Shown piece by piece: positions 7,076 through 53,804 of a stretch of 64,000 nt of DNA (positions are counted from its first letter, which is position 1; every line of letters begins with the position of its first letter). The translations under genes were made by a program, and so were the position numbers. This DNA comes from Balamuthia mandrillaris. Its lineage: Eukaryota. Below the pieces are notes generated by a model that saw nothing but the letters and a program-made list of their open reading frames with translations, did not search any database and was not told the DNA's origin. The stretch spans positions 496,001-560,000 of the forward strand of contig JAVKOQ020000001.1 of NCBI GenBank assembly GCA_031835245.2, written 5' to 3'.

Positions 7076-9864
7076 TTAAGTCCGCTTCCAGATGGTAAGT
7101 TGGCTGATGCCAAACTGAAACTTTCGTTTGTGCTCCCGAAGGAGGAATGGAATGTCCTTTGGTTCGCCCACCATCTCAAAGGAGGGAGCGAGGAGCTTCT
7201 CTAACTCTGTGAGGGAGGCATGCGCTCCATCCCCGCTGCCCAACCACTTTTCTTTTGGTGTGTACTGCTCCTCCCAGCTCCATGGTGAGGCCACCACCAA
7301 CAAGCCCCCTTTGTTGATTATCTTTGGAAGGGACTATTTAAAGAAATGATTAGAATCGGTTGTTGTGAAGAAAGAAGGAAGAAGGAAGAAGGAAGAAGGA
7401 AGGAGGAAGGAGGAAGGAGGAAAAGACATACGGCAATGCAAGCTTGGGGATTAGAGAGACGGTCGAACAAGTTGGAGCAAAGAACTAAGTCGAAATGACC
7501 GATGGTGGGAGGAAGATTGCAGGCATCCGCCTGCTTGAACTCCACTCTTGAGGTGTCTATGTCGTCAGCAAGTGTTGCTGTGCATTTGACCTGAATTGTG
7601 CCTTCCTCTTGTTTCACGTAGTCAATGCTGCGCTGCTCTTGAAGACGACAACCAGTGCCCACGAAGCGAACGCTAAAGTCAAGGCCCAGTACGAAAGGAA
7701 TTCCTCTTGAAAGTTCGAACGTTGCTCGCCCTACGCTGCACCCGAGATCCAACGCCCGTTTTACTTCTCTCTCAGCATATGCTACACAATAGAATGTAAT
7801 AAGACAATAGGAATAATAGTAAACAAAGAGTAGGAAGAAGAATAGGAACAAACCATCGACAGCATCAAGACACTCTTTGGCAATTCGGCTGTGAAAATTC
7901 AAGCCCGCGCTGATTCCATCATAGGAATAAGGAAAGATATCCTCCTTCTCTCCATAGTGGAAGAGAATATACTGAGACACACCCAGATCAGTCTCATAAA
8001 AGGCGTTCGGTCGGATGCTCTGATCGTTGGCCGGCATGAACTCAGATTTGACGTAACGGAAGCCAAGGTGTTGGAAGAAGTGTCTACGGAATGCGTATCT
8101 GGCGAAGATGCTGGCTTCATCCCCAGTGGATATCCAGGAACCGCCCATGATCATGTTGTGCTCGCTATCGAAGCAGGGAGTCGAGAAGTCGTCGTAGAGA
8201 GGGTGAGTCTCGAAGCCGGGAAGTCCATAGAAGTAATCTTCTGCCCATTCCCATACATTTCCATGTACATCATATACGCCAGCCTCAGTGGGAGGAAACA
8301 TATCAACCGGAGAGGCACTCCCGTAGGACATGTTCAAGTTGGCCTTTAAATCTTTGGAAAAGATGATATCACGTTCTACTCCGACGTCGTTGTCAGAGGA
8401 ATCTCTGCAACGATGCCATTCGGCTTCGGTGATTACACGATAATCTTTGCCCTTCCAGGCACAAAAGGCCTTTGCCTCGTGAAAGTTTATGTCAACGGGC
8501 CAATCCCATGGCATCTCGCGAATATCAAACATTGCTTTTCAAAGAAAAACATAGAACGGTGAGGAACTGCACCATAAGCTCCGCTGAGCATAACGAATAC
8601 GAAAGTGTACCTCTGTATTTGAAAGAGTTGCCATTTTTCTTCCAGAAAACTGGATGTTCAGCCTTTTTGAGAGAGAAAGAAGTCAGAGAGATGGAACTGA
8701 TAGTGAACATACAAAAAGAAAAGCAACGAAAAATACGTTTTTATAAGTAACCCAGTTCCATCCCTCTTCGGTCCACAGCTCCTTTCGTTTGTAACCATCG
8801 TCTCGCACAAAGTCCAAGAACTCATAGTTAGTGACAAGGAACTTGGACACCAAAAAGCGAGGCACTGTCACTTCCTTCTTCCCATACTCGTTATCCCATC
8901 CTTTTTACCATGTACAGGCATCAGCAACGAGAGAAGAGTACGAGCGCATAGAAAGCGAGAAGGAGAACAACAGAGATAGGAGAGAACACACAAAGGAAAG
9001 AGAGAAACGAAGAAGGCAAAGAGCTACCATAAGAAGGGAAGTCCAAGGGTTTGCCCAGAGTGACACGACCATCAGGTATCTCCACAAGCTCGTTGCGGGG
9101 AGGCACGCCAAAGCTCTCCGCATCTACCCAGCTCTCCGGTCTTCGCAGGAACTCCACGGGTAGCTCTCGCATCAAGACGCTGGACGTTTCCAAGTGGATG
9201 CGATGGTGCTCCATGCCCATGGCCAAGGCCCACCACGCTGACTTTTGTGTGATGGGCAGCTTCAACTCTGCGTTGGCGATCACATCGCTCACGGTGTCAA
9301 ATACCTCAAAAAAAAAAAAGGATCCAATGAGATGTGTCAGAGAGAAAGTAGTGAAGAAAAAAGTACTTTTTGGCGGTACTCTCGAATCTCCTGCGCAGCA
9401 GGGAAGACACACTTGCTGTTCAGATCTTGGTCATCCTTTTTTTGTTTTAGGACACCCGCAAAAGACGGTGAGCCAAAAAAAAACACGAAAAATAATCTTT
9501 TCTCACAAACAGGACATACCCAAGACATCTCGTCCACGCCCACGGCAAAAAGACTCTCCCACTCAGGATGGACTCGGTCCTGCACCAAGCCGGAGAGCAG
9601 CATCTTGTTCACATAGCTGACCGCGGTGTGCGCGTAATAAAAGATGAGAGGGCGCCGCAGCGGGTTGGCTTCCTTCTGGAAGACCGAGTCGTCCTTGAGG
9701 GCAGAGAAGAGGGTCTCCTCCAGGCCCCACGTGTTCTCCAGGTACTCCTGCAGCTCCTCCCTCGTGCAGGTGGCCAGGTTGGGCGGAGGGATGGAGTGCA
9801 CCGTGCCCACCAAGCTTTCCAGCCGTTTGGCGCTGGCCGTCGTCCTTTGGGGGGTTTTTGGCAT
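7076..9864 (-). CDS. ovoA: Ovothiol biosynthesis enzyme OvoA (5-histidylcysteine sulfoxide synthase plus SAM methyltransferase), multi-exon
   Basis: DinB-like LRRPLIFYYAHTA and MGMEHHRIHLETSSVL (HX3HXE iron motif); FGE-like DVHGNVWEW, HPLYDDFSTPCFD and RYAFRRHFFQHLGFRY; C-terminal methyltransferase RALDLGCSVGRATFELSR. Confidence 0.92.
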
Positions 9865-10269
9865 GGTTGTTTGAAATCGTCGTTCTTGAGCAGCTCTAAA
9901 AACAAAACACACACACGGGAGTCACTTGGAACCAGCGAAACGGAGAGAGACGAGAGAGAGGGGGGGGGAAGAGAAGGCCAAGAGAGAGAGAGAGAGAGAG
10001 AGAGCGCTCGTCTGGTTGGATGAACTGCAAGACGTCCTTGGCGGAAGAGCGGGAAAATCGATTGGTCAATCGATAACGTCAATTGGTCACCTCCGTGGCG
10101 TCATCATTAATGTACCGAGCCAATCGGAATGTTTACCAGGTAAATTAGGGTTTAGTGATGCTAACATAACTATTCCGTGGTATAGCGTAGACCCACCAAA
10201 CGGAGGCGGAAGCCTAGGGGTTTTTATTTTTCCTTGCGTTGCAGGAAAATGTAACGTTACAAAGACGAA

Positions 10270-40089: not shown

Positions 40090-41308
40090 ATGTCGACGGC
40101 GACGAGAGTGCAATGCCCCATTTGCAACGTGATGATAGAGGCTTCAGGTGAGGCCGCCGTCAACAGACACATCGACGAGTGCCTCACCCTACAGTGCCTT
40201 CGAGAGGAGGGCAGCAGCACCCCCACAACAACAAACCACAATGACAGCGACATCAGTAACGAACAATCGGAGGATATGTCTCTCATTCAAGCTCTCATGC
40301 TGTTCGTATTGCTCCTCTTCCATTCTTCATTCTTCTTCTTCCTTCCTTCTTCTTTTGCTTCTCTCCCCTTTTCTTCCTTCCGTCACTTTCTCCTCCTGTT
40401 TCCTATAGTAGTACTCATATAAGTTCCATTCGATATGACGCACCAAAAAAAATAAATAAAAATAAAAACGAAGTGGAGAAGAGAACATGGTTGAAACGAC
40501 CAGCGCCTATACGGGGCCGCAAGTGACGTGCCCTTATCCCGCTTGTGGCCAGGCTTTGGACACCTATGACTTTCCTTCTCATGCTCAAAACTTTCATTCT
40601 TCCTGCAACCAACAACTTGCCTGCCCCATCTGCTTCCTTGAAACGGTCTGTTGCTTGTTCTCTTCTCTTCTTATTCTCCCTTCTTCTTGCTGTTTGTTCT
40701 TTTTGTTCTGGTTCTTCTTCTTCTTCTTTGTTCATTCTTTTGTTTTCTCTTCTTTCTATTTTTGATTTTTAGGGAGAACTCTTTAGCCCAAACGAAAACA
40801 CAAACTTGTTATCCCATCTGAACCAAACCCATCGGGACGCTGCTGAGCTGCGAAAAGCCATTATGGAGTCAGAACGGGCGTTTCTCAACCAACAGCGTGG
40901 CTTTGTGGAGCTTCCTACCACCATTGGCAAAGGCTATATGGGTAACACCTTCTTTTCTATTTTCTCGTATTTCGTTTGATATTTGTTTTCCTTTTATTAT
41001 TTCTTCTTCTCTTATGGTGGTTGCTCTTTTTTCTTCTCTTCAGCGCATACATTGGACAAAGATTTGGAACAAGAGTGTATAATCTGCACCGATGAATTCG
41101 CCAAAGGTTTCTTTCCCTTCGTTTCTTTCTTCTTCTTTCTCTATCTCACATCGAGTTGTGTCTTTCTCCTGCAGGAGACACAGTGGCGCGATTGGAGTGC
41201 TTCTGTGTGTTTCACCAAGAGTGTATAGATGGATGGTTCAAGAAGAGCGAGAAACGACTTTGTCCTGTACATAGAGATGAGGAAAACAAAGCTGCCGCCA
41301 CCACATAA
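40090..41308 (+). CDS. RING-H2 E3 ligase with N-terminal UBZ-type and central Zn fingers
   Basis: CPICN..VNRHIDECL (UBZ4-like); CPYPAC..HAQNFH..ACPIC; CIICTDEFAKGDTVARLECFCVFHQECIDGWF..CPVH (ZNRF-like RING-H2). Confidence 0.8.
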
Positions 41309-41413
41309 CGAACTCTTGTTTTGTTTTCCTTTTTGTATTTGCTTCATTTTTTATTTTCTTTTCTTATTAAAAAAAACTATTTAAACGCAGAATCAGCTTT
41401 CAAGTTGTTCTGT

Positions 41414-41914
41414 TTACACAACGTGAACCACCGAGGAAGATCCTCTTCCAAAGGTCTCTGGTTGATACATCTCCTCCACTTTCGGAGGCGGCGCCACGAA
41501 CCTTCCCAGGGTGGTCGCTCTCGCCAAGTAACTGTACTTAACGACGCCACCACAAAGGAAAGAAGAGAAGACTTCCACTCGATCATCCCTCAAGCTCTCG
41601 TGGTCGAACCACCTGCCGCTCCACCCTTGGCAAAAGCCGACCGCAAAGCCTCTGCCCAACGCCAAGAGCTCCATGAGGAGAGTGGATTGTTTGGATGGAG
41701 GAGAGGCATGGTCGGAAGATTGTTTAAGTTCGGGGTTGAGTATCTCCAGACCGGCAGGCAAGGAATCCGTCATGGCGATGTGATGGCGGCTCTCGTGGGT
41801 AGAGATGGAGAGAACAATGCGAACGCGAGTTCCAGCTTTCACTTTGATGATATGTTGTTCTCCTTCTTCGCCTTCTTCTTCAATAGTTACGCTGAACATT
41901 TCATTTGATTAGAT

Positions 41915-41963
<49 letters not shown>

Positions 41964-44900
41964 GACGAGAGAAGAAAGTTACTCTGAAGGATCGTCAACG
42001 GCCTCGAAGGTGCGGCGAATGGTGAAGCCTTTGTCAATTGGCTTTAAGAAGGACACTCCAGTGAGGGCGTATTTCAGGCCAATGCGGTAATAACAACGGC
42101 CAGCACCACTCTTATGCAGCAAAAGAGGCAACATTTGCGCTATTTAAACAAGACAAAAGCAAATGAGGATTAAACACGGGTTGAAAGAAGAAAGAAAGTT
42201 AGGAGAACAAACCTGTATCTGCAACAGAATGGAGCCTTTTTGCTTCCTCACGAATCAGCTCTCTTTCATCGCAACCAGCATGCTTCATGTGTAAAGCCCA
42301 CATGGGCACTTCCACCACCTGCTCCTCGAAGGAACGTCCCTCAAACTGCTTCACTCCCAACAAAGAGTTATTCAACCACGCTCTCACCTTCATGTCCGGT
42401 TCCTCTCTTTCCAAAGCGTTAAAGTATTGACGGAAGGCGAGCAGCACCCAGACATTCTCCTGCGTGTTGTTCCAGTGACCTTCTTTCCTTCTAGAGGACT
42501 GCAAGCCTTTCATCAGCTTTGGGATGAGCGAGTGCGTCGGTTGGATTTGAATGAGGCCGCTGAGAAGGATGGCCTCAGTCCTGCGGTTGGAGTGAAGGAT
42601 GAGATAGGAACCCCCGTCGCGGTGGATGTAGTCACTGCTCTCGTGAAAGTGGGCTTCGCTTGCGGTTTCCGTGGCTCTATTGCAGAGGTAGCGAACTTCG
42701 TCTTCCATTATGTCTTGTACCTGCTCTTCATGTTCCGCGAAAGTGTGACGACGACGGATGTTGAAGACAAGTGGAAGTAAGAGACCATATGCCTCCAATG
42801 GCAATTTCTCAGGTCCTTTGGAAAACAACATGATGATATGTTCCTCGATTTCCTCGGCATGACCCATTAAAGTAAGCACGTGCTAAAGTTTGGAGAACAA
42901 AGGTTAGAAGGAGAGGAACAAAGAAGAAGAACAAGAGGAGGGACGCCTAGAACAAACCATGGCATAGGCCTTGATGATGTAGCGCGTCCATTTGGGGTAT
43001 TTCTTCAGTGGTGGTTCGGCATTAGCATTATCATTGTACGTGCGGAAACCTTCGTGAATACAAAGTTATTGGTCGGGCCAGAGAATAGCTTAAATAGAAC
43101 GAGAAGAAGGCATACCAAAGCCAAAACGAGGCTGTTGTTGTTGTTGTTCAATACCAAGTAACTTCATCAAATAGGATGCACTCTGTTTGAGCATCTTGCT
43201 GCCAGCAATATCCGCATTCATGCCACACATCAAGGCGAGGGCGTGCCCCACGTGCACGCTAATATAAGGCCACGAAATACTCTCATGATTGTTGCCACCG
43301 TAGTAGCCCATGCCGTACATTTCAGCTCCTTTGGGTCTTGTGTTCCAAAAGCCAAAACCTCCGTCTTGGTTTTGGGCGGCATCTAACTTCTTCAGGTCGC
43401 GTCGGAACGTTTTGGCCACTTTCTCTGCTGAAGGCATCTCTTTGTCTGCAAGTTAAGTAGACAAATGTGAACACAACAATAAACAAAAACTATGGTTTGA
43501 GAACAGAAGCCATACCTTTAAAGTCTTCTAAGAGATCCTGCAATTGAAGAGTGGCAATCAGACGAGACGCCACCTGCTCGTTGCACTCATATGGATAATT
43601 CATCAAATAGACAAAGGCATCCGAGAGGCTATGCAAATTTGTGGAAGTGGTTCGTATCTCCAATCCCCCGAAACGACCATCTACCACCATGCTTCCCTTG
43701 CCTATAACACCTTCTTCTGCTTTAGCAAAGGAGGAAGAGACGTTAATAGGTTGAATGATTGCCGATCGGTTGTTGTCCAGATGTCCATATGTGGCGAAGC
43801 TCTCGGAGATCATTGGCTTACGAACAGGGAAAGTGATGCGAGCAGCATCCGAATGGATACCACAAGTTGAGCAAACGATGGCCTCAACGGTAGCGGAGGA
43901 AGATACTGTTGCTGCTGCCAGCTCGAACAACACTTCCACTCTGTATGAGAAACTAGTAAGCTTTGGAAATAAAAGAAAACCAAAGAGATCAAAAAAAGCT
44001 AAGAACCTGTTGTTGGCAGCAACAAAAACTCGTTTGGCCGCAGCTCCTTCAATAAAGAGATGTTTAGCTCTCAATCCCACTTTTGCCTGTTTTATTAACA
44101 ATTATAAGAAGGAAGACAAACAGTAAAAGAAGAAAACTAGGCATACCTGCATCGGAGCATCGGTATTATTGTGTACCACAAGGCTTTGTAAGAACTTATC
44201 ACCAATGGATATAAAGCGAGGAGGAGATGGCTTCAGCATTAACGGCAGTCTAACAGTGATATTGCTCTCCAAAATACCAAATCTGTTGCCTTTGTTCGCA
44301 ATAACCATTATACGATAGCTGATTTGCAATGAATGTTAATCACAAGAAGGAACGCAAACGGGCAAGATGAACCATGTACCGTGTCAAGTTATCCGGAAGA
44401 CTGAAACTCACTTTGACCTTTCCTTCTGCATCCGATTGGAGATGTCCTTGGAAAGTGGCCAGAGGATCGAAGTCACTCCTAACCACTGTCCTGGCTGATG
44501 AACCACCGCCACCTCCTCGCAGACGCAAGACCTAATTTTTGAATATAACAAGAAAGACAAGAGTGAAACGTTAAGAAACGACAAGAAAGAAACAACAAGA
44601 AAGAAACGACAAAAAAAAGTGTACCAAGTGAAGGGTTGACTCTTGCTGGATGTTGTAGTCGAGCAAGGTGCGACCATCTTCGAGCTGTATGCCAGCGAAA
44701 ATTAGCCGCTGTTGATCCGGAGGAATTCCTTCTTTATCTTGAATGGCCACCTTCAGCTCTTCTACTGTAGACCAGCTTGCCACCCTATTATTAGAGAAAA
44801 GCGCAAGTATGTTAAGGGCAAGAAGAAAAGTAATGAAAGGGAGAGAAGTAAAAAATGACAGGGAGGAGAGGTGTACTCTAAAGTGATGGTTTTGCCAGTA

Positions 44901-46331
44901 AGAGTCTTCACATAGATAGTGATCATGGCGCCAGAGCCGACGACCTTGGTACGCGTAGAATGGTTGGCGTTAAAGCACTTGAGCCTTCCCTCACCCTCCC
45001 GCCCATAAAATGTTTCCAATGGATCCTTCAGCGTGTAATGCGCCAAGAAGAGCACCGCCTCATCCACAACGTACACCGTACAATCAACATCGTTGGCTGG
45101 CTGCATTCTTCCAGATGAAGGTTTCGCCGTCACTTGTGTGACGGTGTTGGCGCCGCCATCAGAGCTTGTGGCAACGGCAGAGGGAACAATGGATGGCTTC
45201 TCCAAGAGTTGCAACTCGAACTGGACGATATCTTGCGGTTGGTACACTGCCTGATAGCCAGGAACCATTTTGACTTGGATCTTTTGTTGTCTGTTGACAA
45301 TCACTGGAATGAATATCGATTTCGGCATGATCCAAGGAACTCCCCTTGCCTGTGCATCAGAAGAGGCTTCCCCTCTTTCTTCTTGTTGTTCTGGAGGACA
45401 AGGAATGACGCTGACTTCCACATGCAAGCCAGGAAGACTCTTCTCTTCGAGAGGAATAGGCAGTTCCAGCACGTGAGCAGGGCCATCCATGTGAAAAGGT
45501 GTTACTCGAGCGAGACCATGCCCGCCCACTGAAAGCAAGCCTTGGCAGGGGTATATGGGAGCATGCACCAACAGATGCGCCGTTTCTCCCAATTCGTACT
45601 CGTTCTTGTCGGCGAGAAGACGAAGGGTAAATTTGTTGCCTCCGCTTTTGTTGGAAGGAGGATAGAGAATGCGGTTCAGGCCGCGGAAGGCATAAACCGT
45701 GATGCTGCTGACATTTTTCCTGCCATGAGAGTCCATTACTTCTGCGTAAATATCTGCACAGTAACCTTCCTTCCACTCCCCAAAGTCCACCACAAAAATA
45801 CCCGGCAAGGATCCTTCTTCTGGTTGATATGCTTCTTCTTGTTCCACTTTCATGTTTTCGTCGTTTTCGCCACCATTCAAAGCGAATCTCTTCACAACGA
45901 CATCGCCGGTAACTTTTTCATGGAAACCAGTTTCCTCATTCTTGCGCCACAAACGTTCTTTCTTTCTCAGCAATACTCGTACGCCTTTAGCGTGTTCATC
46001 ATTGCTGTTGAGATGCAGTCTTTCTCCATCGATGGTGCTCACCACCAACTCGCAGCGAAGCGGTGCGCCCACTCCTACCAAATACTCCGTTTGAGGTCGC
46101 AAACCTATGTAGAGGGAAGCTGGATGTATGATGATTGGGTTGACTGTGGCTGTTAGGGATTGCCTATTGAGGTCTACCGTGGTCACGTCGGCGTTGAGCT
46201 TGATGGGTGCGACGAGCTTGCCTTCATGAGACAACTGGAAACGTACACGATTTGTGCCTGCTGCATCGGTTTTGGCTGCGAGACCAGATAAAATAAGTAA
46301 TAAATAAATAAATAAATAAATCAATAAATAA

Positions 46332-46366
<35 letters not shown>

Positions 46367-49300
46367 ATGAGGGGGAGAGAGAGAGCACCTTTATGGGTTT
46401 GGAAAGGGAAGCGTCCATGAGCATGGGTGGTAAAGGTGAAGCCTGAATTGTTGGGTGGACGGTAGGTCGTTTGCGTGGTCATAAAAGTCCACGATATATC
46501 TGTAAATGGTAAGCTACAGCCAGTAAAGTATCTATTGTTTTGTGGTAGCAACATTAGAAACGCAAACAAATGGCCAAAGAGATAACATTTTCAATGTAAT
46601 GAAACGTACTTCGCTTCGGCAGAAAAGTCTATTGGTTCGTCAACCAAAAACGGTCCACCGTCGGTCACATTAGCGCTCATCTCAAATTCAGGACGTCTAT
46701 ATTTATCAAACAGCAAGGGAAGAGGTAAGGAAAAAAGAAGAACGAAGGACAAGAAGAATAAAGTGTGAGCCGTTACCTAAACTCCTGAATCTCCAAGTCA
46801 TGCGTGTAAATGTACTGACTGGCGACTTGTTGCGAGGTAGACATAAAGGCCATCATTTCGTTAAACGAGTCTATCAACACCAACTCCAAATGGGCTTTTC
46901 CCAAAGCCATGTTGCTGGGCAACGTAAAGGTAAGCTCGAAGCAATTGCCTTCGCTCAGAGTTCGAACGCCTTTGGCATAAGGCCCCCGCCGCATCTCGTC
47001 CTTTAGCACATAGTACACACCAAGGCTTGTCACTGGCGTAATCTCTCCCGAGCGCCTTAACTTACGAACCCATCCTTTCACCACTACGTCTTCTCCAGGT
47101 CGGTACAATCCTCGGTCGTTGATAACATACCTTTTTACAAAACAAGCGGTTCGATAAGATGCCAAAAAGGAGGGAAGCAGAAGCAGATGTTACCATAAAA
47201 ACTTATCTTGGTAACCTCGCGACGAAGCTAAAGTAGATGGAGCATACAGGACACTGTCTTTGCCCTTCTTTGCTTCCAGTATTTTGGCGCGGTGTGTTGC
47301 CTGGAAGAAAAGAAACAATGCAGAAGCATACCAAAGAGCCGTCATTTAATTAAAAACGTCCCTTTCGAGTTAAAAGTCTTTTTGTCATTGAAAAAATGAA
47401 ACGGGCACGTACCACTCGAGGAATAGTAAGGTTGTAAACCATACCGTCCTTGTCAGATACACCGTAACCAAAGCCGTCCAAGAAATTAACTGCGCAATCG
47501 CTTACAGCTAAAAATAAACAAGTCGTCAGCAAAGAAATAAACAAGTGATTAAGTCGTTACTCACGCGTTCCATCCACCAGAGAAGTCACAAGAGCATTCA
47601 AGCATTTAAGGTCACTCGTTATATCGAGGGCAAGATCTGCAATGAGAGATAATATAGGGTCAAATTTAGAAATGCAACAGTGTGCCAAAGTAACGAACCT
47701 GATCTACATATCCATGAATAAGCTGTAAGCTTTTTTGTTTTAAAAAAACTTAAGTTAGCATCATCACCCATTTTAAGAGTTGGGCACCTACAATAACAAC
47801 AGTAAAGAGACTTACCGTTGGAGCAGTTACACAGAGTACATAGTGCCCGTAATCACTAAGTTGAGAGAGATCAATGTTGGTGCGAATATTGTTGTCGGGT
47901 GTGCCCTGAATATTTAATTGTTGTGAAAAGACTCTTCGCATGGAGCCCTGGCAGAAGCTTTCCACTTGATCAGCCGAAAGACTAGAGTAGGAATGCCACA
48001 TGACAGTATTTGTTTTAAAAACTTGCACGTGCACCTTATCTAAATTACATGTAACGGCTGTAACCACATTGCTATTTTTGCATTAAGAGAATAAAGTGGT
48101 AAGAAACGAGAGAGAGAGAGAGAGAGGAAAGAGCAGAAAGCAGACAAAGAGGAGGAAAGTAGTACCCCAAGTCTACAAAAGAAGGTAAAACAACGTATTT
48201 GGCGCAGCTAAGATACAATCTCGAGCTTAAAACATTTCGTGGCGTGGTGAATGAATATTCCAAGGCTTCTGAGGAAGGAAGCGTTTGGCCGAAGCAGTCT
48301 TTGATGCCTGGCGAAAGTGTTACTATGTAAGTTGCTTCTCGTTCTAAAGAGCCTTCTATAGTGAGAGTATAGCCTGAAATGATGACGTTCCATTCTTTTG
48401 GTTCTTTTGTTGTTGCATGAGAATGTCAACTACTTGAAACAAAACACAAAAACAAGAGAGAGAGAGCGAGAGCTAGAGCGGCAGAGAGAGAGAGAGAGAA
48501 TGAGAAGACCTAGAGAGAGAAACAAACCTGGTTGAATGGTGACCAACTTTTTCCTTTCTTCTTGGTCATCCACTTCAGCTAGATGGTTGCTAAAGGTAAA
48601 CGCTTTTTGGTCATGTGCTTCCACCAAGAAGGGTCCATACGTCTATGTATACCGAATGAATGAGAGAAAGAGAGGGAGTGATAGAAGAGAAATACAAACC
48701 GAAAAGGGAATCGAAGAGGCTTCCGTAGTGGTGAGAGGCCCCTCCGCAGAAGGGCAGCCAGGATTCAACTTCAAAGTTAAAGAGGTAGCGTAAGGAAGAA
48801 GCTCCACTGGTGTAACAGCAATGCAACGACCATCCTCCGCATCAGCAATGGCAGACGCAATGGACTCATCTTCTGCCAACTCCTCCGAAGTGGCCAAACG
48901 AAACACAAAGCCCTTGGTCTCCTCAGCTGTGAAAGAAAGGTAATAGCAAATAAATAAAGCATAGAGGAGAATTGGAGAAGCAAAACAAGATAAGACATGA
49001 ATAAGGAACACCAACCAACGGCCTCCAAGAATGGAATAACATCATCAGCCACCACCTTTTGGTTAAATCTAAGCAGGATAAGAGGCTGCTGAGAGCAGTG
49101 CTTTGCGTCCTGATCTCCCGCAAAACGATGGCTTTCAATCTTGACTCGCTCCGTACTGAAGCAGAACGTTACATCTTCTGCGAGAGAATTGCCCAATGCG
49201 CTTGCACATTCTTCCGCTGCGATTTTAACTGTAAACTCAGTCGAAAGTGGAAATCTGCATGGAAAAAAACTGTCAGCAGAGAAAGAGATAGGAAAGTAAG

Positions 49301-50513
49301 AACAACAGGAATTACCTGTCCCAAACCTCAAAGACAAGAGTTTGGGTGTTTATCCAACTCCAAGAACCGAACTCCTCACCGTTGGATGGATCCACGTTTG
49401 GGGATAGTGTGACACCAGGGAGACCTGCATCCTTTATCCCCTGGTCCAGTTGCTCGTGAGACGTTAGCGACACCATTGCCTCCGAGAAAGTTATGGCTAT
49501 TTGAGTAATGCCACCAGTTAAAGCCCCAGAGGGGCTATAACGAAGAACCTTGAGAGAAGCACCCTTGCTCTTGTCCTCTCCTTCTTCTTCCAAATGCATG
49601 GAGCTTGCTGCGCCATCTCCCCCAGAGTCTATTTCTACAGAAGGAGAAGGAGGAAAGATGGACATCTTTTGCAAATCGCCAGAAAGGATATCCTCTTCCA
49701 CTTCCATCCCGTGTCTCCTTTTCTTGTGTTGAGGCACAGTAGTTTGACACTCTTTAAACAGCTTCTCTCGGACAGCCTCATCCTCTTCTGTTTCTTCCTG
49801 AAAACTGTATCGCGCTTCTTTCTGGTCTTCTTCCTCTCCATCCTTTTCTCCATTACCCTCCTCGTCGTTGGGCATCGCTGCAAGAAGCTCTTCCGTCTCC
49901 ACCTCCGAAAGCGGAACAGCTTCCTCCGTTTCGTCTTTCTCCTTTTGTTTGTCTTCGGTCTCCCCATCATGAGGAAAAGTGGTATCCACCACGCTGCACT
50001 TTATCGATATGCTGCTCTTGGGAGCGTGAGTGCCAGGGAGTGGAGCCAGTCCAGCCGCATTGCGTAGGCGCAGCACCAGGTGCAGCGTTGCCCCATCAGG
50101 GATATCGTAGTCTGAAAGTTTGAAGTCCGGCTAAAGACATTCAATAAAAAAACGGTTAGAGAGGTAACAAAGAAAGAAAGTAACGACAAGAAAGATGTGA
50201 AGTAAAGAGAGAATAAAATAACAACTTCAAAATAAAAGAAAGAGTTGAAACGAACATTTAAAGAACGACCAGCATGGATGAGGTTTTGTTGGTCCACCGG
50301 AACGCCATCCTTCTCCTGGATGCTCTGCATGACCGCTTTGATGGTTGGGAAACGTCCCTGCACGGTGATGGTCTTGCCAGTGAGGGTCTTCACCTCCAGC
50401 CTGCGAAAGGGCACGCGTTTGTTTGTATTGGTGGTGGCCGTGGAAGCGGGCGAGCCGCTGGCCTCATCCTTCTTTTCCTCTGTTTCAATCGCCTTCTCCT
50501 TTTCTATCTCCAT
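41414..50513 (-). CDS. Bacterial-type alpha-2-macroglobulin with an N-terminal ubiquitin-like domain and an internal ubiquitin in the bait position (~23 introns)
   Basis: Ig-like [101 protein letters not shown]; thioester [77 protein letters not shown]. Confidence 0.9.
44511..44926 (-). other. Embedded ubiquitin domain, split by introns 44532-44624 and 44785-44876
   Basis: Spliced: [77 protein letters not shown]; 61/76 identical to canonical ubiquitin by hand alignment. Confidence 0.95.
46288..46368 (+). repeat. (TAAA)n microsatellite in an intron
   Basis: Direct inspection. Confidence 0.9.
50056..50402 (-). other. N-terminal ubiquitin-like domain of the A2M gene (intron 50131-50255)
   Basis: [74 protein letters not shown]; no terminal GG. 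Confidence 0.9.
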
Positions 50514-50749: not shown

Positions 50750-51192
50750 ATGAGGACTGCAGCGAGACGGAGTAGCGCTGCCGGCTTGCCTATTCCTCGT
50801 TGCCCTTTGTGGTTGCAACGCTCTCGTTTGAGCTGTTTCGCTTCTGCGCAAGTTGCCTCGCTACGGCGTAGGCCGTCGGAGCACTTGGCCGCCGCGACAA
50901 GTACTTGCCGCTCCTCATCTCTTTCGTCATTTCGCTGTTTCAGCAGCAACGGTAAAGCTCTTTAGAAAGTCTTTCTACTCCACTTCTTGTTTAATACTTG
51001 TGTAGGAACCGGAAGGCCGTTGCCTCCGTTCGTTCAACGACGGCTGCGGCTGTGGCAAGAGGAGCAAGCACGACAGCAACATGCCGAGACGCGTGATGCG
51101 GTTGCTGCTACCGCCATAACCATCACGCTGCCGGATGGCTCCCGCCTTGAGTGTCCGTCTGGCACCACTGCCTTGGATGTTGCCGCTGGTAT

Positions 51193-51227
<35 letters not shown>

Positions 51228-53804
51228 GCTCTTTTCTCTTCTACTTCAGCTTGTTGCTAGCTCTTGGTCCAGACATAATTCGCGTTACGTTTGTATATCC
51301 CGACAACAGGGTTATCGACTGGACTAGCGAGGGAAGTAGTGGTGGCCAGAGTGAACGGTCAGTTGAGAGATCTAACAAGAGCCTTAGACGAGGACTGCTC
51401 TTTGGAGCTGCTCAAGTTTGACAGTAAAGAGGGCAAGCAGGTGTTTTGGCATTCCTCCTCTCACATCCTTGGTCAAGCCTTGGAGCAGCATTATTACACA
51501 CCTGAAGCAAAAGAAGGAGAAGAAGAGAAAACAAACATACAGTTGTGTGATGGACCGGCATTGGATGAGGACAAAGGAGGTGGCGGCTTCTTTTACGAGT
51601 TTCTACTAGCGAAAAAAATAAAGGGAGAAGGAACATCTGTCTCTTCGGAGGAGTTCGGCGACTTGGAAAAGAGGATGCAGGAAATATTGAAGAGCAAACA
51701 ACTCTTTGAGAGAATGAAAGTGTCCAAGGAATTTGCTCTCAAAATGTTTACCTATAACAAATTCAAAAGGTACCTTTCTTCCTTTCTCTCTTTTGTTCTC
51801 CTTTTTTCTTTCTTTCTGTTCTCCTTCTCTATTCTTATTTCTTTGTTTGTGTTGCTTAATTTGTTAAATCTAGGGAGCTTATAGAAAGTTTACCAGAGGG
51901 TGAAGAGATAACTCTCTATCGTTGTGGCGACTTTGTGGACCTTTGCAGAGGACCCCACATTCCTCATACTGTATCTCTCCTCTCTCTCTCTCTCTCTCTC
52001 CCCTCGCTGTTCGCTTGTTCTCTTCTCTGCCTCTATTGTCCAAGGCTGAAATAGCCCTACATAACAACAGGGTATGATCAAAGCTTTTTCTGTGCTGAAG
52101 GCCTCTGGCGCTTACTGGAAAGGAGATGCACAAAACGAATTGCTGCAACGGGTCTATGCCATATCATTCCCAAAAGCAACTCAACTCAAAGAATGGACTA
52201 CGATGAGGGAAGAAGCCATGAAACGGGATCATCGCCTTCTCATCAAAAACCAAAACTTGGTCATGTTCAGTCCCCTAAGTCCCGGCAGCCCTTTCTTCCT
52301 CCCTCATGGAACTCGCATTTACAACAGGTCCCTATCTTATCTTTTGGTTTGTTTATGGTTGTTGTTTCTTCAATCTGAACAATTGCCGGATATAGGTTGG
52401 TGAACTTTTTGCGAGATGAATACAGGAAAAGAGGCTACGAGGAAGTCATCACGCCATTGGTCTTTCACAAGGAACTATGGGAAACGTCAGGCCATTGGCA
52501 AAACTACAAAGATGACATGTTCATCGTCTCCTCCCCTCATCATGGTCAATCTCAGTACGTACGAGCGAGCGTTCACACCCATGCCTTGTTATTTGTTTAT
52601 TTGTTGTCATTAACACATATTCATTCGTTTAGCGGTTCTCATGATCATAATCAGAATCCAGAGAACAAAGAAGATACGATAATGGGACTGAAGCCAATGA
52701 ATTGTCCTGGCCACTGCCTCATTTTTGCCAATGAAGCTCGCTCTTACCGAGATCTCCCAGTTCGATTTGCAGACTTTGGAGTTCTCCATCGCAACGAGTT
52801 ATCTGGAACACTCACTGGTCTAACCCGCGTACGACGCTTCCAACAAGGTCCTTTTCTTGTTTCTTGATTCTTTATTTGTTTCTGACATTATCCTTTGTCC
52901 AGATGATGCACACATCTTTTGTACAGAAGAACAAATGGAGTCTGAGATCATGGCCTGCCTTGAGTTCATGCAGCACGTCTACAGTGTCTTTGGATTTGAG
53001 CTCTTTCTCTCCCTCTCCACTCGACCCACGGACAAATACTTAGGCGATCTTTCCCTTTGGGACAAAGCCGAAAACGCATTGCGACGCTGCCTGGATCGCA
53101 TCACCTCTACTTCTGCGTCTTCTCAAGATAAAGGAGAACGAGGATGGAAAGTAGCTCCAGGAGAAGGAGCTTTCTACGGCCCCAAGATCGACGTTCAAGT
53201 GAGCGATTCTCTCGGCAGACGCCATCAATGCGCCACCATCCAATTGGACTTCAACCTGCCGCACCGCTTCGGACTCTCCTACGCCACCAAGCAAGGCTCC
53301 CTCGAACGGCCCGTCCTCATCCACCGTGCCATCTTTGGCTCCATCGAGCGGATGATTGGCATCTTGACGGAGCATGTGGCCGGCAAGTGGCCCTTCTGGT
53401 TGAACCCTCGCCAGGTGCTCGTCGTGCCCATTCGCAGCGACAGTGAGAAGCAAGTGGAGTACGCCAGGCGCGTGTGGAGACGGTTGCAGAGGGAAGGTTA
53501 TCATGTGGATCTGGAGGACAGCGAGCGGACCAGTTTTGCCAAGAAGATCAAGGAAGGGCAGAGCTTGCAGTATAACTTCATGTTGGTGGTGGGAGAGGAG
53601 GAAGCGGACTCTTACAAGAAGGGTGCCCGAGTGTGGAGGGAGAAGAGTGAAGGAGAAGAAGCAAGAGAAGGAGAAGAGGGAGCAGAGGGAGGAGCAGAAG
53701 AGAATGTGGTGAGCGTAAGAACACGAGATAATGTAGTACATGGCAAGAAGCCCTTGGCTGACCTTCTGTCCGAACTTGCAACCTTGCAACGAACCTTTCA
53801 ATAA
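50750..53804 (+). CDS. Threonyl-tRNA synthetase, probably mitochondrion-targeted
   Basis: TGS domain, editing [10 protein letters not shown] and [80 protein letters not shown]; Arg/Ser-rich N-terminus. Confidence 0.96.

What the first reader, a model, noticed from the sequence alone, without database searches (positions are those of the whole stretch)
44381..45075. Ubiquitin occupies the bait region of an alpha-2-macroglobulin: candidate deubiquitinase trap
Seen: a ~80% ubiquitin-identical domain lies between [16 protein letters not shown] and [19 protein letters not shown]. It ends LRLRGG and is followed by a flexible GGGSS linker. Both fusion junctions fall inside exons, and the two introns within the Ub splice in frame, so an assembly chimera is unlikely. 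Known: in A2M-family proteins this interval is the unstructured bait, whose cleavage triggers cage closure and thioester attack on the protease, and DUBs cleave after LRLRGG. Inference: the protein is an A2M re-targeted to capture ubiquitin-specific proteases, for example DUB effectors from intracellular bacteria or giant viruses, or it is switched on by host DUBs. I am not aware of a described natural A2M with a ubiquitin bait.
Basis: partly seen in the sequence, partly recalled or inferred. Interest (0 to 1): 0.95.

Follow-up and report, generated by a model that had tools for sequence, protein, structure and literature searches.

The report
Ubiquitin-baited protease trap in amoebae
An amoeba expresses a giant bacterial-type protease-trap protein (alpha-2-macroglobulin) with no export signal, whose trigger loop is replaced by an almost normal ubiquitin, an arrangement shared by two other species' genes; it likely works inside the cell and would snap shut on enzymes that cut ubiquitin off proteins.

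Summary
Confirmed. The window encodes a 25-exon, 2383-aa bacterial-type alpha-2-macroglobulin (A2M), identical to an NCBI protein named 'Polyubiquitin [Balamuthia mandrillaris]'. Residues 1464-1539 are ubiquitin (61/76 identical, intact LRLRGG) in the slot where most bacterial relatives have a low-complexity bait. Spliced contigs from two studies join scaffold, ubiquitin and scaffold; genomic contigs from two more studies exclude a chimera. Acanthamoeba castellanii and an unnamed eukaryote transcriptome have orthologues with the same layout. All three keep the GG tail, the thioester motif and most of its guard residues, lack a signal peptide, and carry a second, N-terminal ubiquitin-like domain that has lost GG. 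Best reading: a cytosolic thioester trap sprung by cleavage after ubiquitin Gly76 (about 0.55). Main objection: host deubiquitinases normally cut such fusions during translation, so the cutter may be the host's own, and a pathogen target is unproven. No cleavage, thioester, location or structure was shown. Ten paper searches found no description. The scan noted intein-plus-ubiquitin and other decoy baits in A2Ms of other genomes (unchecked notes).

The parts
41414..50513 (-). Whole gene: 25 exons, 2383-aa leaderless bacterial-type alpha-2-macroglobulin with two ubiquitin-fold domains
   Evidence: Gene model; identical to P0145; 15 introns listed as RNA joints (10 more joints not shown); Pfam
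50062..50405 (-). N-terminal ubiquitin-like domain (aa ~37-109, split by intron 50131-50255); lacks the GG tail
   Evidence: 40 of 69 identical to ubiquitin; Pfam PF00240; same in both orthologues
45044..45625 (-). Scaffold before the bait (Pfam A2M_BRD, aa 1230-1423)
   Evidence: window coordinates worked out from the exon table
44877..44923 (-). Bait ubiquitin, first piece (from aa 1464), same exon as the upstream scaffold
44785..44876 (-). Intron 1 inside ubiquitin (92 nt, GT-AG)
   Evidence: spliced in X11, X5 contigs and X17 reads
44625..44784 (-). Bait ubiquitin, middle exon
   Evidence: PF00240 E 7.5e-21
44532..44624 (-). Intron 2 inside ubiquitin (93 nt, GT-AG)
44511..44531 (-). Ubiquitin tail ending LRLRGG (Gly76 = aa 1539); predicted scissile bond follows
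   Evidence: cleavage itself is inferred
44469..44510 (-). 10-residue Gly/Ser-rich linker and the conserved Arg1550..Phe1553 pair, the likely counterpart of the alpha'NT plug
   Evidence: alignment; plug model from PMC9352918; equivalence inferred
44075..44453 (-). Scaffold after the bait (Pfam A2M PF00207, aa 1559-1644, over three exons)
43574..43597 (-). Thioester site: Tyr1782, Tyr1784, Cys1786-x-Glu-Gln1789
41414..41891 (-). Last exon: C-terminal macroglobulin domain (bMG10) with the thioester-guarding Met2366-Tyr2367
   Evidence: PF17973 E 5e-30; guard residues per PMC4498604

Best explanation
The protein is a leaderless, likely cytosolic, bacterial-type alpha-2-macroglobulin whose bait is a ubiquitin, and it likely works as a covalent trap that would be sprung when a deubiquitinase cuts after Gly76. 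Shown: one spliced gene; ubiquitin in the bait slot; intact tail; thioester motif and guard residues; no signal peptide; same layout in three species. Inferred steps: (1) the protein folds into the native A2M state with a thioester; (2) a deubiquitinase docks on the conserved ubiquitin face and cuts the tail; (3) the freed 10-13-residue plug pulls out of its channel, the thioester is exposed and acylates the enzyme; (4) a cut before the ubiquitin would leave a folded stopper on the plug, as the anaphylatoxin domain does in complement C3, which would make the trap selective for tail-cutting enzymes; (5) the two ubiquitin-fold domains left on the N-terminal chain may route the adduct to disposal. 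Whether the prey is a host enzyme or one from an intracellular bacterium or giant virus is open.
For: Position: between A2M_BRD and A2M Pfam domains; 0 of 289 other hits carry ubiquitin, and the 256 of them with a delimited bait have 36-172 (median 81) mostly low-complexity residues there; flanks align to the two sides of the E. coli YfhM bait through homologue P0002. Selection on cleavability: tail 70-76, loop 6-12 and the Ile44 and Ile36 patches are invariant in 3 of 3 orthologues that are only about 40% identical overall, changes cluster in residues 13-33, and the N-terminal ubiquitin-like domain lost GG in 3 of 3. 0 of 21 exonic strain differences in 43900-45500 fall in the ubiquitin, about 4 expected by length (weak). 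Thioester CxEQ, the two flanking aromatic residues and the C-terminal Met-Tyr are kept in 3 of 3, the guard set described for bacterial A2M (PMC4498604). Gly76 lies 10, 12 and 13 residues before the conserved Arg..Phe pair, as the plug-in-channel trigger needs (PMC9352918). Bait swapping retargets E. coli A2M (PMC9918453). No hydrophobic leader in 3 of 3, against 95 of 118 full-length relatives. Parasites of amoebae encode such enzymes (PMC7542358; PMC13365592).
Against: Linear ubiquitin fusions, internal ones included, are cut co-translationally by host deubiquitinases unless proline follows Gly76 (PMC3692480); here glycine follows, so an armed cytosolic trap needs a shielding or selectivity mechanism that I could not show. 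A folded insert in the bait is not unique: 6 bacterial relatives carry an inserted domain there (CarboxypepD_reg confirmed for P0357 only), so the slot tolerates passengers. One of the two C-terminal motifs named in PMC4498604 is degenerate in P0144. Ubiquitin's conserved face also binds E1, E3s and ubiquitin-binding domains (established knowledge), so its conservation is not specific to deubiquitinases. Only three species; expression in raw reads is low (about 1x). No structure, biochemistry or localisation.
Confidence: 0.55

Rival explanations
1. Deubiquitinase-triggered, complement-like tagger: the cut exposes the thioester, which attaches mainly to bystander surfaces (a vacuole or microbe being stripped of ubiquitin) rather than to the enzyme, and the ubiquitin-fold domains then mark that surface for autophagy or the proteasome.
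For: A folded ~76-residue domain cut at its C-terminal end mirrors the anaphylatoxin domain of C3, where the thioester binds surfaces (PMC9352918). The N-terminal ubiquitin-like domain is kept in 3 of 3.
Against: The scaffold groups with bacterial protease-inhibitor-type A2Ms; the histidine that gives C3 its hydroxyl reactivity (PMC7864068) could not be located by alignment.
Confidence: 0.2
2. Built-in processing site: host deubiquitinases cut the protein constitutively into two chains; the N-terminal chain then ends in a free ubiquitin tail and might be activated by E1 and conjugated like a giant ubiquitin.
For: This is the default fate of internal ubiquitin fusions (PMC3692480). Lys63 is replaced in 3 of 3 and Lys48 in the window's copy, much as engineered reference fusions drop Lys48.
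Against: Bait continuity is needed for the native A2M state (PMC9352918); constitutive cutting would make the thioester and its guards useless, yet they are kept in 3 of 3.
Confidence: 0.12
3. The ubiquitin is a binding or decoy module that is not cut by deubiquitinases: it recruits ubiquitin-binding proteins or other ubiquitin-modifying enzymes, and an ordinary protease cuts the short linker.
For: Ile44 patch invariant; a short flexible linker remains after Gly76.
Against: Binding alone does not need GG, and the N-terminal domain shows that GG is lost when cleavage is not needed; the low-complexity bait of bacterial relatives is gone.
Confidence: 0.1
4. Neutral passenger insertion or assembly artefact.
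For: The slot tolerates inserts in bacteria.
Against: Four studies' contigs confirm the junctions; three species share the layout and form one clade (SH-like 100, FastTree, long branches); the bait ubiquitin is 75-88% conserved against about 40% for the whole protein.
Confidence: 0.03

Closest known systems
Type I bacterial alpha-2-macroglobulins: E. coli ECAM/YfhM (PDB 5a42, 4ziq, 4rtd), Salmonella SaA2M (4u48), and the ~2000-aa subfamily of Acidobacteria, Myxococcota and others found
   Same: Domain order, thioester motif, guard residues, bait slot; 30-35% identity to subfamily members
   Different: No signal peptide; intron-rich eukaryotic gene; bait replaced by ubiquitin; extra N-terminal ubiquitin-like domain
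Complement C3/C4 (anaphylatoxin domain)
   Same: A folded small domain occupies the cleavable slot, followed by a short plug with a conserved Arg and Phe (PMC9352918 passages)
   Different: C3 is secreted, furin-processed and cut by a convertase; it did not appear among the PDB sequence matches of the bacterial-type homologue
Dictyostelium DdiCPRas2 (PMC2430557)
   Same: Amoebozoan bacterial-type (COG2373) A2M with a folded eukaryotic domain inserted between two scaffold blocks; the published coordinates are compatible with the bait slot (my inference, untested)
   Different: The insert is a permuted Ras GTPase; the paper does not discuss bait, thioester or trapping in the parts read
Bait-engineered A2Ms (A2Mcap, PMC9918453; PMC8267569 seen in a search listing only)
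   Same: Bait replacement redirects capture to a chosen protease
   Different: Engineered short peptide sites, not a natural folded ubiquitin; no deubiquitinase in the passages read
Ubiquitin fusion precursors and the ubiquitin reference technique (PMC3692480)
   Same: Linear ubiquitin with intact Gly76 inside a longer chain
   Different: There cutting only releases parts; here it would be coupled to a thioester switch

Membership tests
Type I bacterial-type alpha-2-macroglobulin | MG-domain array, A2M_BRD, A2M and C-terminal bMG10 in order | tested here: met
   Pfam
Type I bacterial-type alpha-2-macroglobulin | CxEQ thioester motif | tested here: met
   Cys1786-Asn-Glu-Gln1789; 3 of 3 amoebal and 133 of 140 other aligned proteins
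Type I bacterial-type alpha-2-macroglobulin | Thioester guard pocket (two aromatic residues by the motif, C-terminal Met-Tyr) | tested here: met
   against PMC4498604; sequence level only
Type I bacterial-type alpha-2-macroglobulin | Unstructured, broadly cleavable bait | tested here: not met
   Replaced by ubiquitin plus a 10-residue linker; hence filed as a variant
Type I bacterial-type alpha-2-macroglobulin | Export signal or lipoprotein anchor | tested here: not met
   Peak N-terminal hydropathy -0.38 against median 2.6 in 118 relatives; hydropathy only, no dedicated predictor
Type I bacterial-type alpha-2-macroglobulin | Thioester forms; cleavage triggers conformational change and covalent capture | not testable with these tools
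   needs biochemistry
Type I bacterial-type alpha-2-macroglobulin | Native fold with the plug threaded through its channel | not tested
   no structure model was obtained
Cleavable ubiquitin (deubiquitinase substrate) | Ubiquitin sequence with LRLRGG and no proline after Gly76 | tested here: met
   61/76, 57/76, 67/76 identity; tail intact and Gly next in 3 of 3
Cleavable ubiquitin (deubiquitinase substrate) | Tail accessible to an enzyme in the folded protein | not testable with these tools
   needs structure or assay
Complement C3-like opsonin | Histidine giving hydroxyl reactivity | tested here: inconclusive
   I could not assign the equivalent loop in these sequences by eye; feature from PMC7864068
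Polyubiquitin (the NCBI name of P0145) | Head-to-tail ubiquitin repeats | tested here: not met
   two separate ubiquitin-fold domains 1350 residues apart

The most novel reading that the evidence does not exclude
Free-living amoebae turned a bacterial periplasmic protease trap into a cytosolic immune sentinel with an integrated ubiquitin decoy: it resists the cell's own deubiquitinases, is cut by those of intracellular bacteria or giant viruses, binds them covalently and flags them for destruction. It would be a natural suicide trap for deubiquitinases and one case of a wider class of intracellular A2Ms baited with host proteins.
Probability: 0.3. Interest if true: 0.95.

Novelty: new variant of a known kind. 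Interest (0 to 1): 0.82.

Why it matters
A2M-family proteins are known as extracellular or periplasmic traps with floppy baits. A cytosolic one wired to ubiquitin would link thioester capture to the ubiquitin system in a single-celled eukaryote, give a testable candidate for amoebal defence against parasites that strip ubiquitin, and offer a genetically encoded covalent probe for deubiquitinase activity. It also poses a sharp question: how an intact ubiquitin fusion survives in a cytosol full of deubiquitinases.

Tried and rejected
No whole genome is held, so paralogues in this species were not surveyed. A homologue search centred on the bait was flooded by polyubiquitins: of 120 listed only P0001 was an A2M. 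The 50%-representative search returned none of the three amoebal proteins and no ubiquitin in its 150 rows, so it says little on eukaryotic spread. The species behind P0144 is unknown (cluster look-up unavailable). The atlas look-up did not run. No structure or complex model was obtained, so placement of the ubiquitin rests on sequence and Pfam boundaries, and its docking or shielding is untested. The mixture-model tree did not finish; FastTree was used (56 rows, a subset of the 143 aligned), and it does not identify a donor. No run was on record as an RNA holder; evidence for splicing comes from laying the runs. Rejected: assembly chimera, exon skipping as the main form (no skipping joint among the 5 listed; contigs drop rare forms), polyubiquitin gene, and the CAGE complex (different fold; 10.1101/2025.09.22.677704 passages). 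I found no list of deubiquitinase contact residues in PMC7047443, so the patch definitions are recalled.

Full report
Observation. The finding lies in a minus-strand gene from 50513 to 41414. Fifteen introns were taken from RNA joints and nine from frame and homology; the result is 25 exons and one open frame of 2383 aa. It is identical at all 2383 residues to P0145, which NCBI names 'Polyubiquitin [Balamuthia mandrillaris]'. Residues 1464-1539 match the commonest unit of named animal polyubiquitins at 61 of 76 positions and end LRLRGG (the species' own ubiquitin was not available for comparison). Pfam places it between A2M_BRD (1230-1423) and A2M (1559-1644).

It is one transcript and not a chimera. 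A 1988-nt contig of run X11 runs from the upstream scaffold exon through both ubiquitin introns into the downstream scaffold. A 7271-nt contig of X5 (labelled 'DNA?' but lacking all five introns of the stretch laid) does the same; its offset of 102 nt and its length fit a full-length mRNA (7254 nt to the stop), although only 43900-45500 was laid for it. Raw RNA reads of X17 show each ubiquitin intron twice; depth in X16-X18 is only about 1x in the 3-5% of each run read. Unspliced contigs of X3 and X10 cross both junctions. These four contig sets come from four studies.

Relatives. Searches with ubiquitin-free parts found two orthologues: P0001 from Acanthamoeba castellanii and P0144 from an unnamed eukaryote transcriptome. 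They are 3 of the 120 proteins listed and the only ones with a ubiquitin domain; across 292 proteins, only these 3 have one. They are about 40% identical and form one clade apart from the 53 other rows of the tree (FastTree, long branches, midpoint root). All named other hits are bacterial. All three have an N-terminal ubiquitin-like domain (40/69, 35/64, 30/68 identical to ubiquitin) without GG and a bait ubiquitin (61, 57, 67 of 76) with it. In the bait copies residues 5-12, 34-42 and 64-76 are invariant; 14 of the 22 changed positions lie in 13-33; Lys63 is replaced in all three and Lys48 in the window's copy. None has a hydrophobic leader, against 95 of 118 full-length relatives.

The slot. 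In the 256 non-amoebal proteins whose bait could be delimited (of 289), the interval holds 36-172 residues, mostly low-complexity. Through homologue P0002 its flanks align with both sides of the E. coli YfhM bait, where residues 923-963 are the disordered and cleaved region (PMC4498604, parts 2 and 3 of the text). Six of the longest bacterial baits hold an inserted domain followed by a long low-complexity stretch (CarboxypepD_reg for P0357); in the amoebae the low-complexity stretch is gone, and Gly76 lies 10-13 residues before the conserved Arg..Phe pair.

The trap machinery. The CxEQ motif, its two flanking aromatic residues and the C-terminal Met-Tyr, the guard pocket described for bacterial A2M, are present in all three. 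The other C-terminal motif named in that paper is intact here, has one change in P0001 and is degenerate in P0144.

Mechanism. PMC9352918 (first part and passages) shows that a break in the bait lets the downstream plug, with a conserved Arg and Phe, retract from a channel and trigger the change, and that complement C3 has a folded domain in the same slot. I infer that a cut in the ubiquitin tail frees the plug, while a cut upstream would leave a folded stopper, giving selectivity for tail-cutting enzymes. Bait swapping is enough to retarget E. coli A2M (PMC9918453 passages), and monomeric A2Ms appear to need covalent capture (PMC7864068 passages). Candidate foreign cutters exist in amoebal parasites (PMC7542358 and PMC13365592 passages). 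Against this stands the rule that host deubiquitinases cut linear fusions during translation unless proline follows (PMC3692480 passages). The retained thioester suggests an uncut pool exists, and the altered residues 13-33 could dock or detune the ubiquitin, but that is speculation. I give the trap 0.55, a complement-like tagger 0.2, constitutive processing 0.12, an uncut binding module 0.1 and a passenger 0.03.

What is known. Ten full-text searches, seven of them aimed at this protein or its architecture, gave no description of an A2M with a ubiquitin bait; I saw listings and abstract starts for most hits, and the library lacks most subscription papers and I read no supplements. The one 'macroglobulin' passage in PMC7235994 is unrelated. 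The nearest printed precedent is Dictyostelium DdiCPRas2, a permuted Ras domain inserted in a bacterial-type A2M (PMC2430557, passages and the second part of its Findings). The sequences and both Pfam domains are in public databases, under names that hide the layout. The scan's own unchecked notes report leaderless A2Ms baited with intein plus ubiquitin, SNARE, actin, PilB or cysteine clusters in other genomes; look-ups by sequence and place found no look-alike of this gene. I did not test those notes and take them as leads only. Ubiquitin patch definitions (Ile44, Ile36) are recalled.

Verdict. Real, expressed, conserved in three species, and apparently undescribed: a new variant of the A2M family. 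The trap reading is well motivated by sequence but untested, and the pathogen-defence reading is the bolder part of it.

Noticed in passing
window 49815-50496 (runs X11, X17; table 5c): A joint that goes back from 50496 to 49815 with 25 new letters suggests that another strain, allele or paralogue has the N-terminal ubiquitin-like segment tandemly duplicated.
   Followed up: no
window 41858, 41881, 42447, 49797, 49841 (X11 loose ends): Contigs that match briefly and run on unlike the window may be A2M paralogues in the same species.
   Followed up: no
window ~40093-41310, + strand: Small gene with an N-terminal zinc-finger-like motif and a C-terminal RING finger (zf-RING_2 E 7e-6, just under the cut-off), tail to tail with the A2M gene; possible ubiquitin ligase neighbour, probably chance.
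   Followed up: partly
P0357, P0355, P0274, P0282, P0288, P0341: Bacterial A2Ms with a folded insert (CarboxypepD_reg-like in P0357) at the start of the bait; several other bacterial baits share a short conserved-looking segment of unknown origin.
   Followed up: partly
P0001 ~1890-1990 and P0144 ~1940-2040: Both orthologues have a long charged insertion in the thioester domain that the window's protein lacks.
   Followed up: no
window ~50966-53804, + strand: Gene that looks like a threonyl-tRNA synthetase (by eye), divergent from the A2M gene.
   Followed up: no
window ~7318-9921, - strand: Gene that seems to fuse a formylglycine-generating-enzyme-like domain to a methyltransferase (by eye), as in ergothioneine/ovothiol enzymes (recalled).
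   Followed up: no
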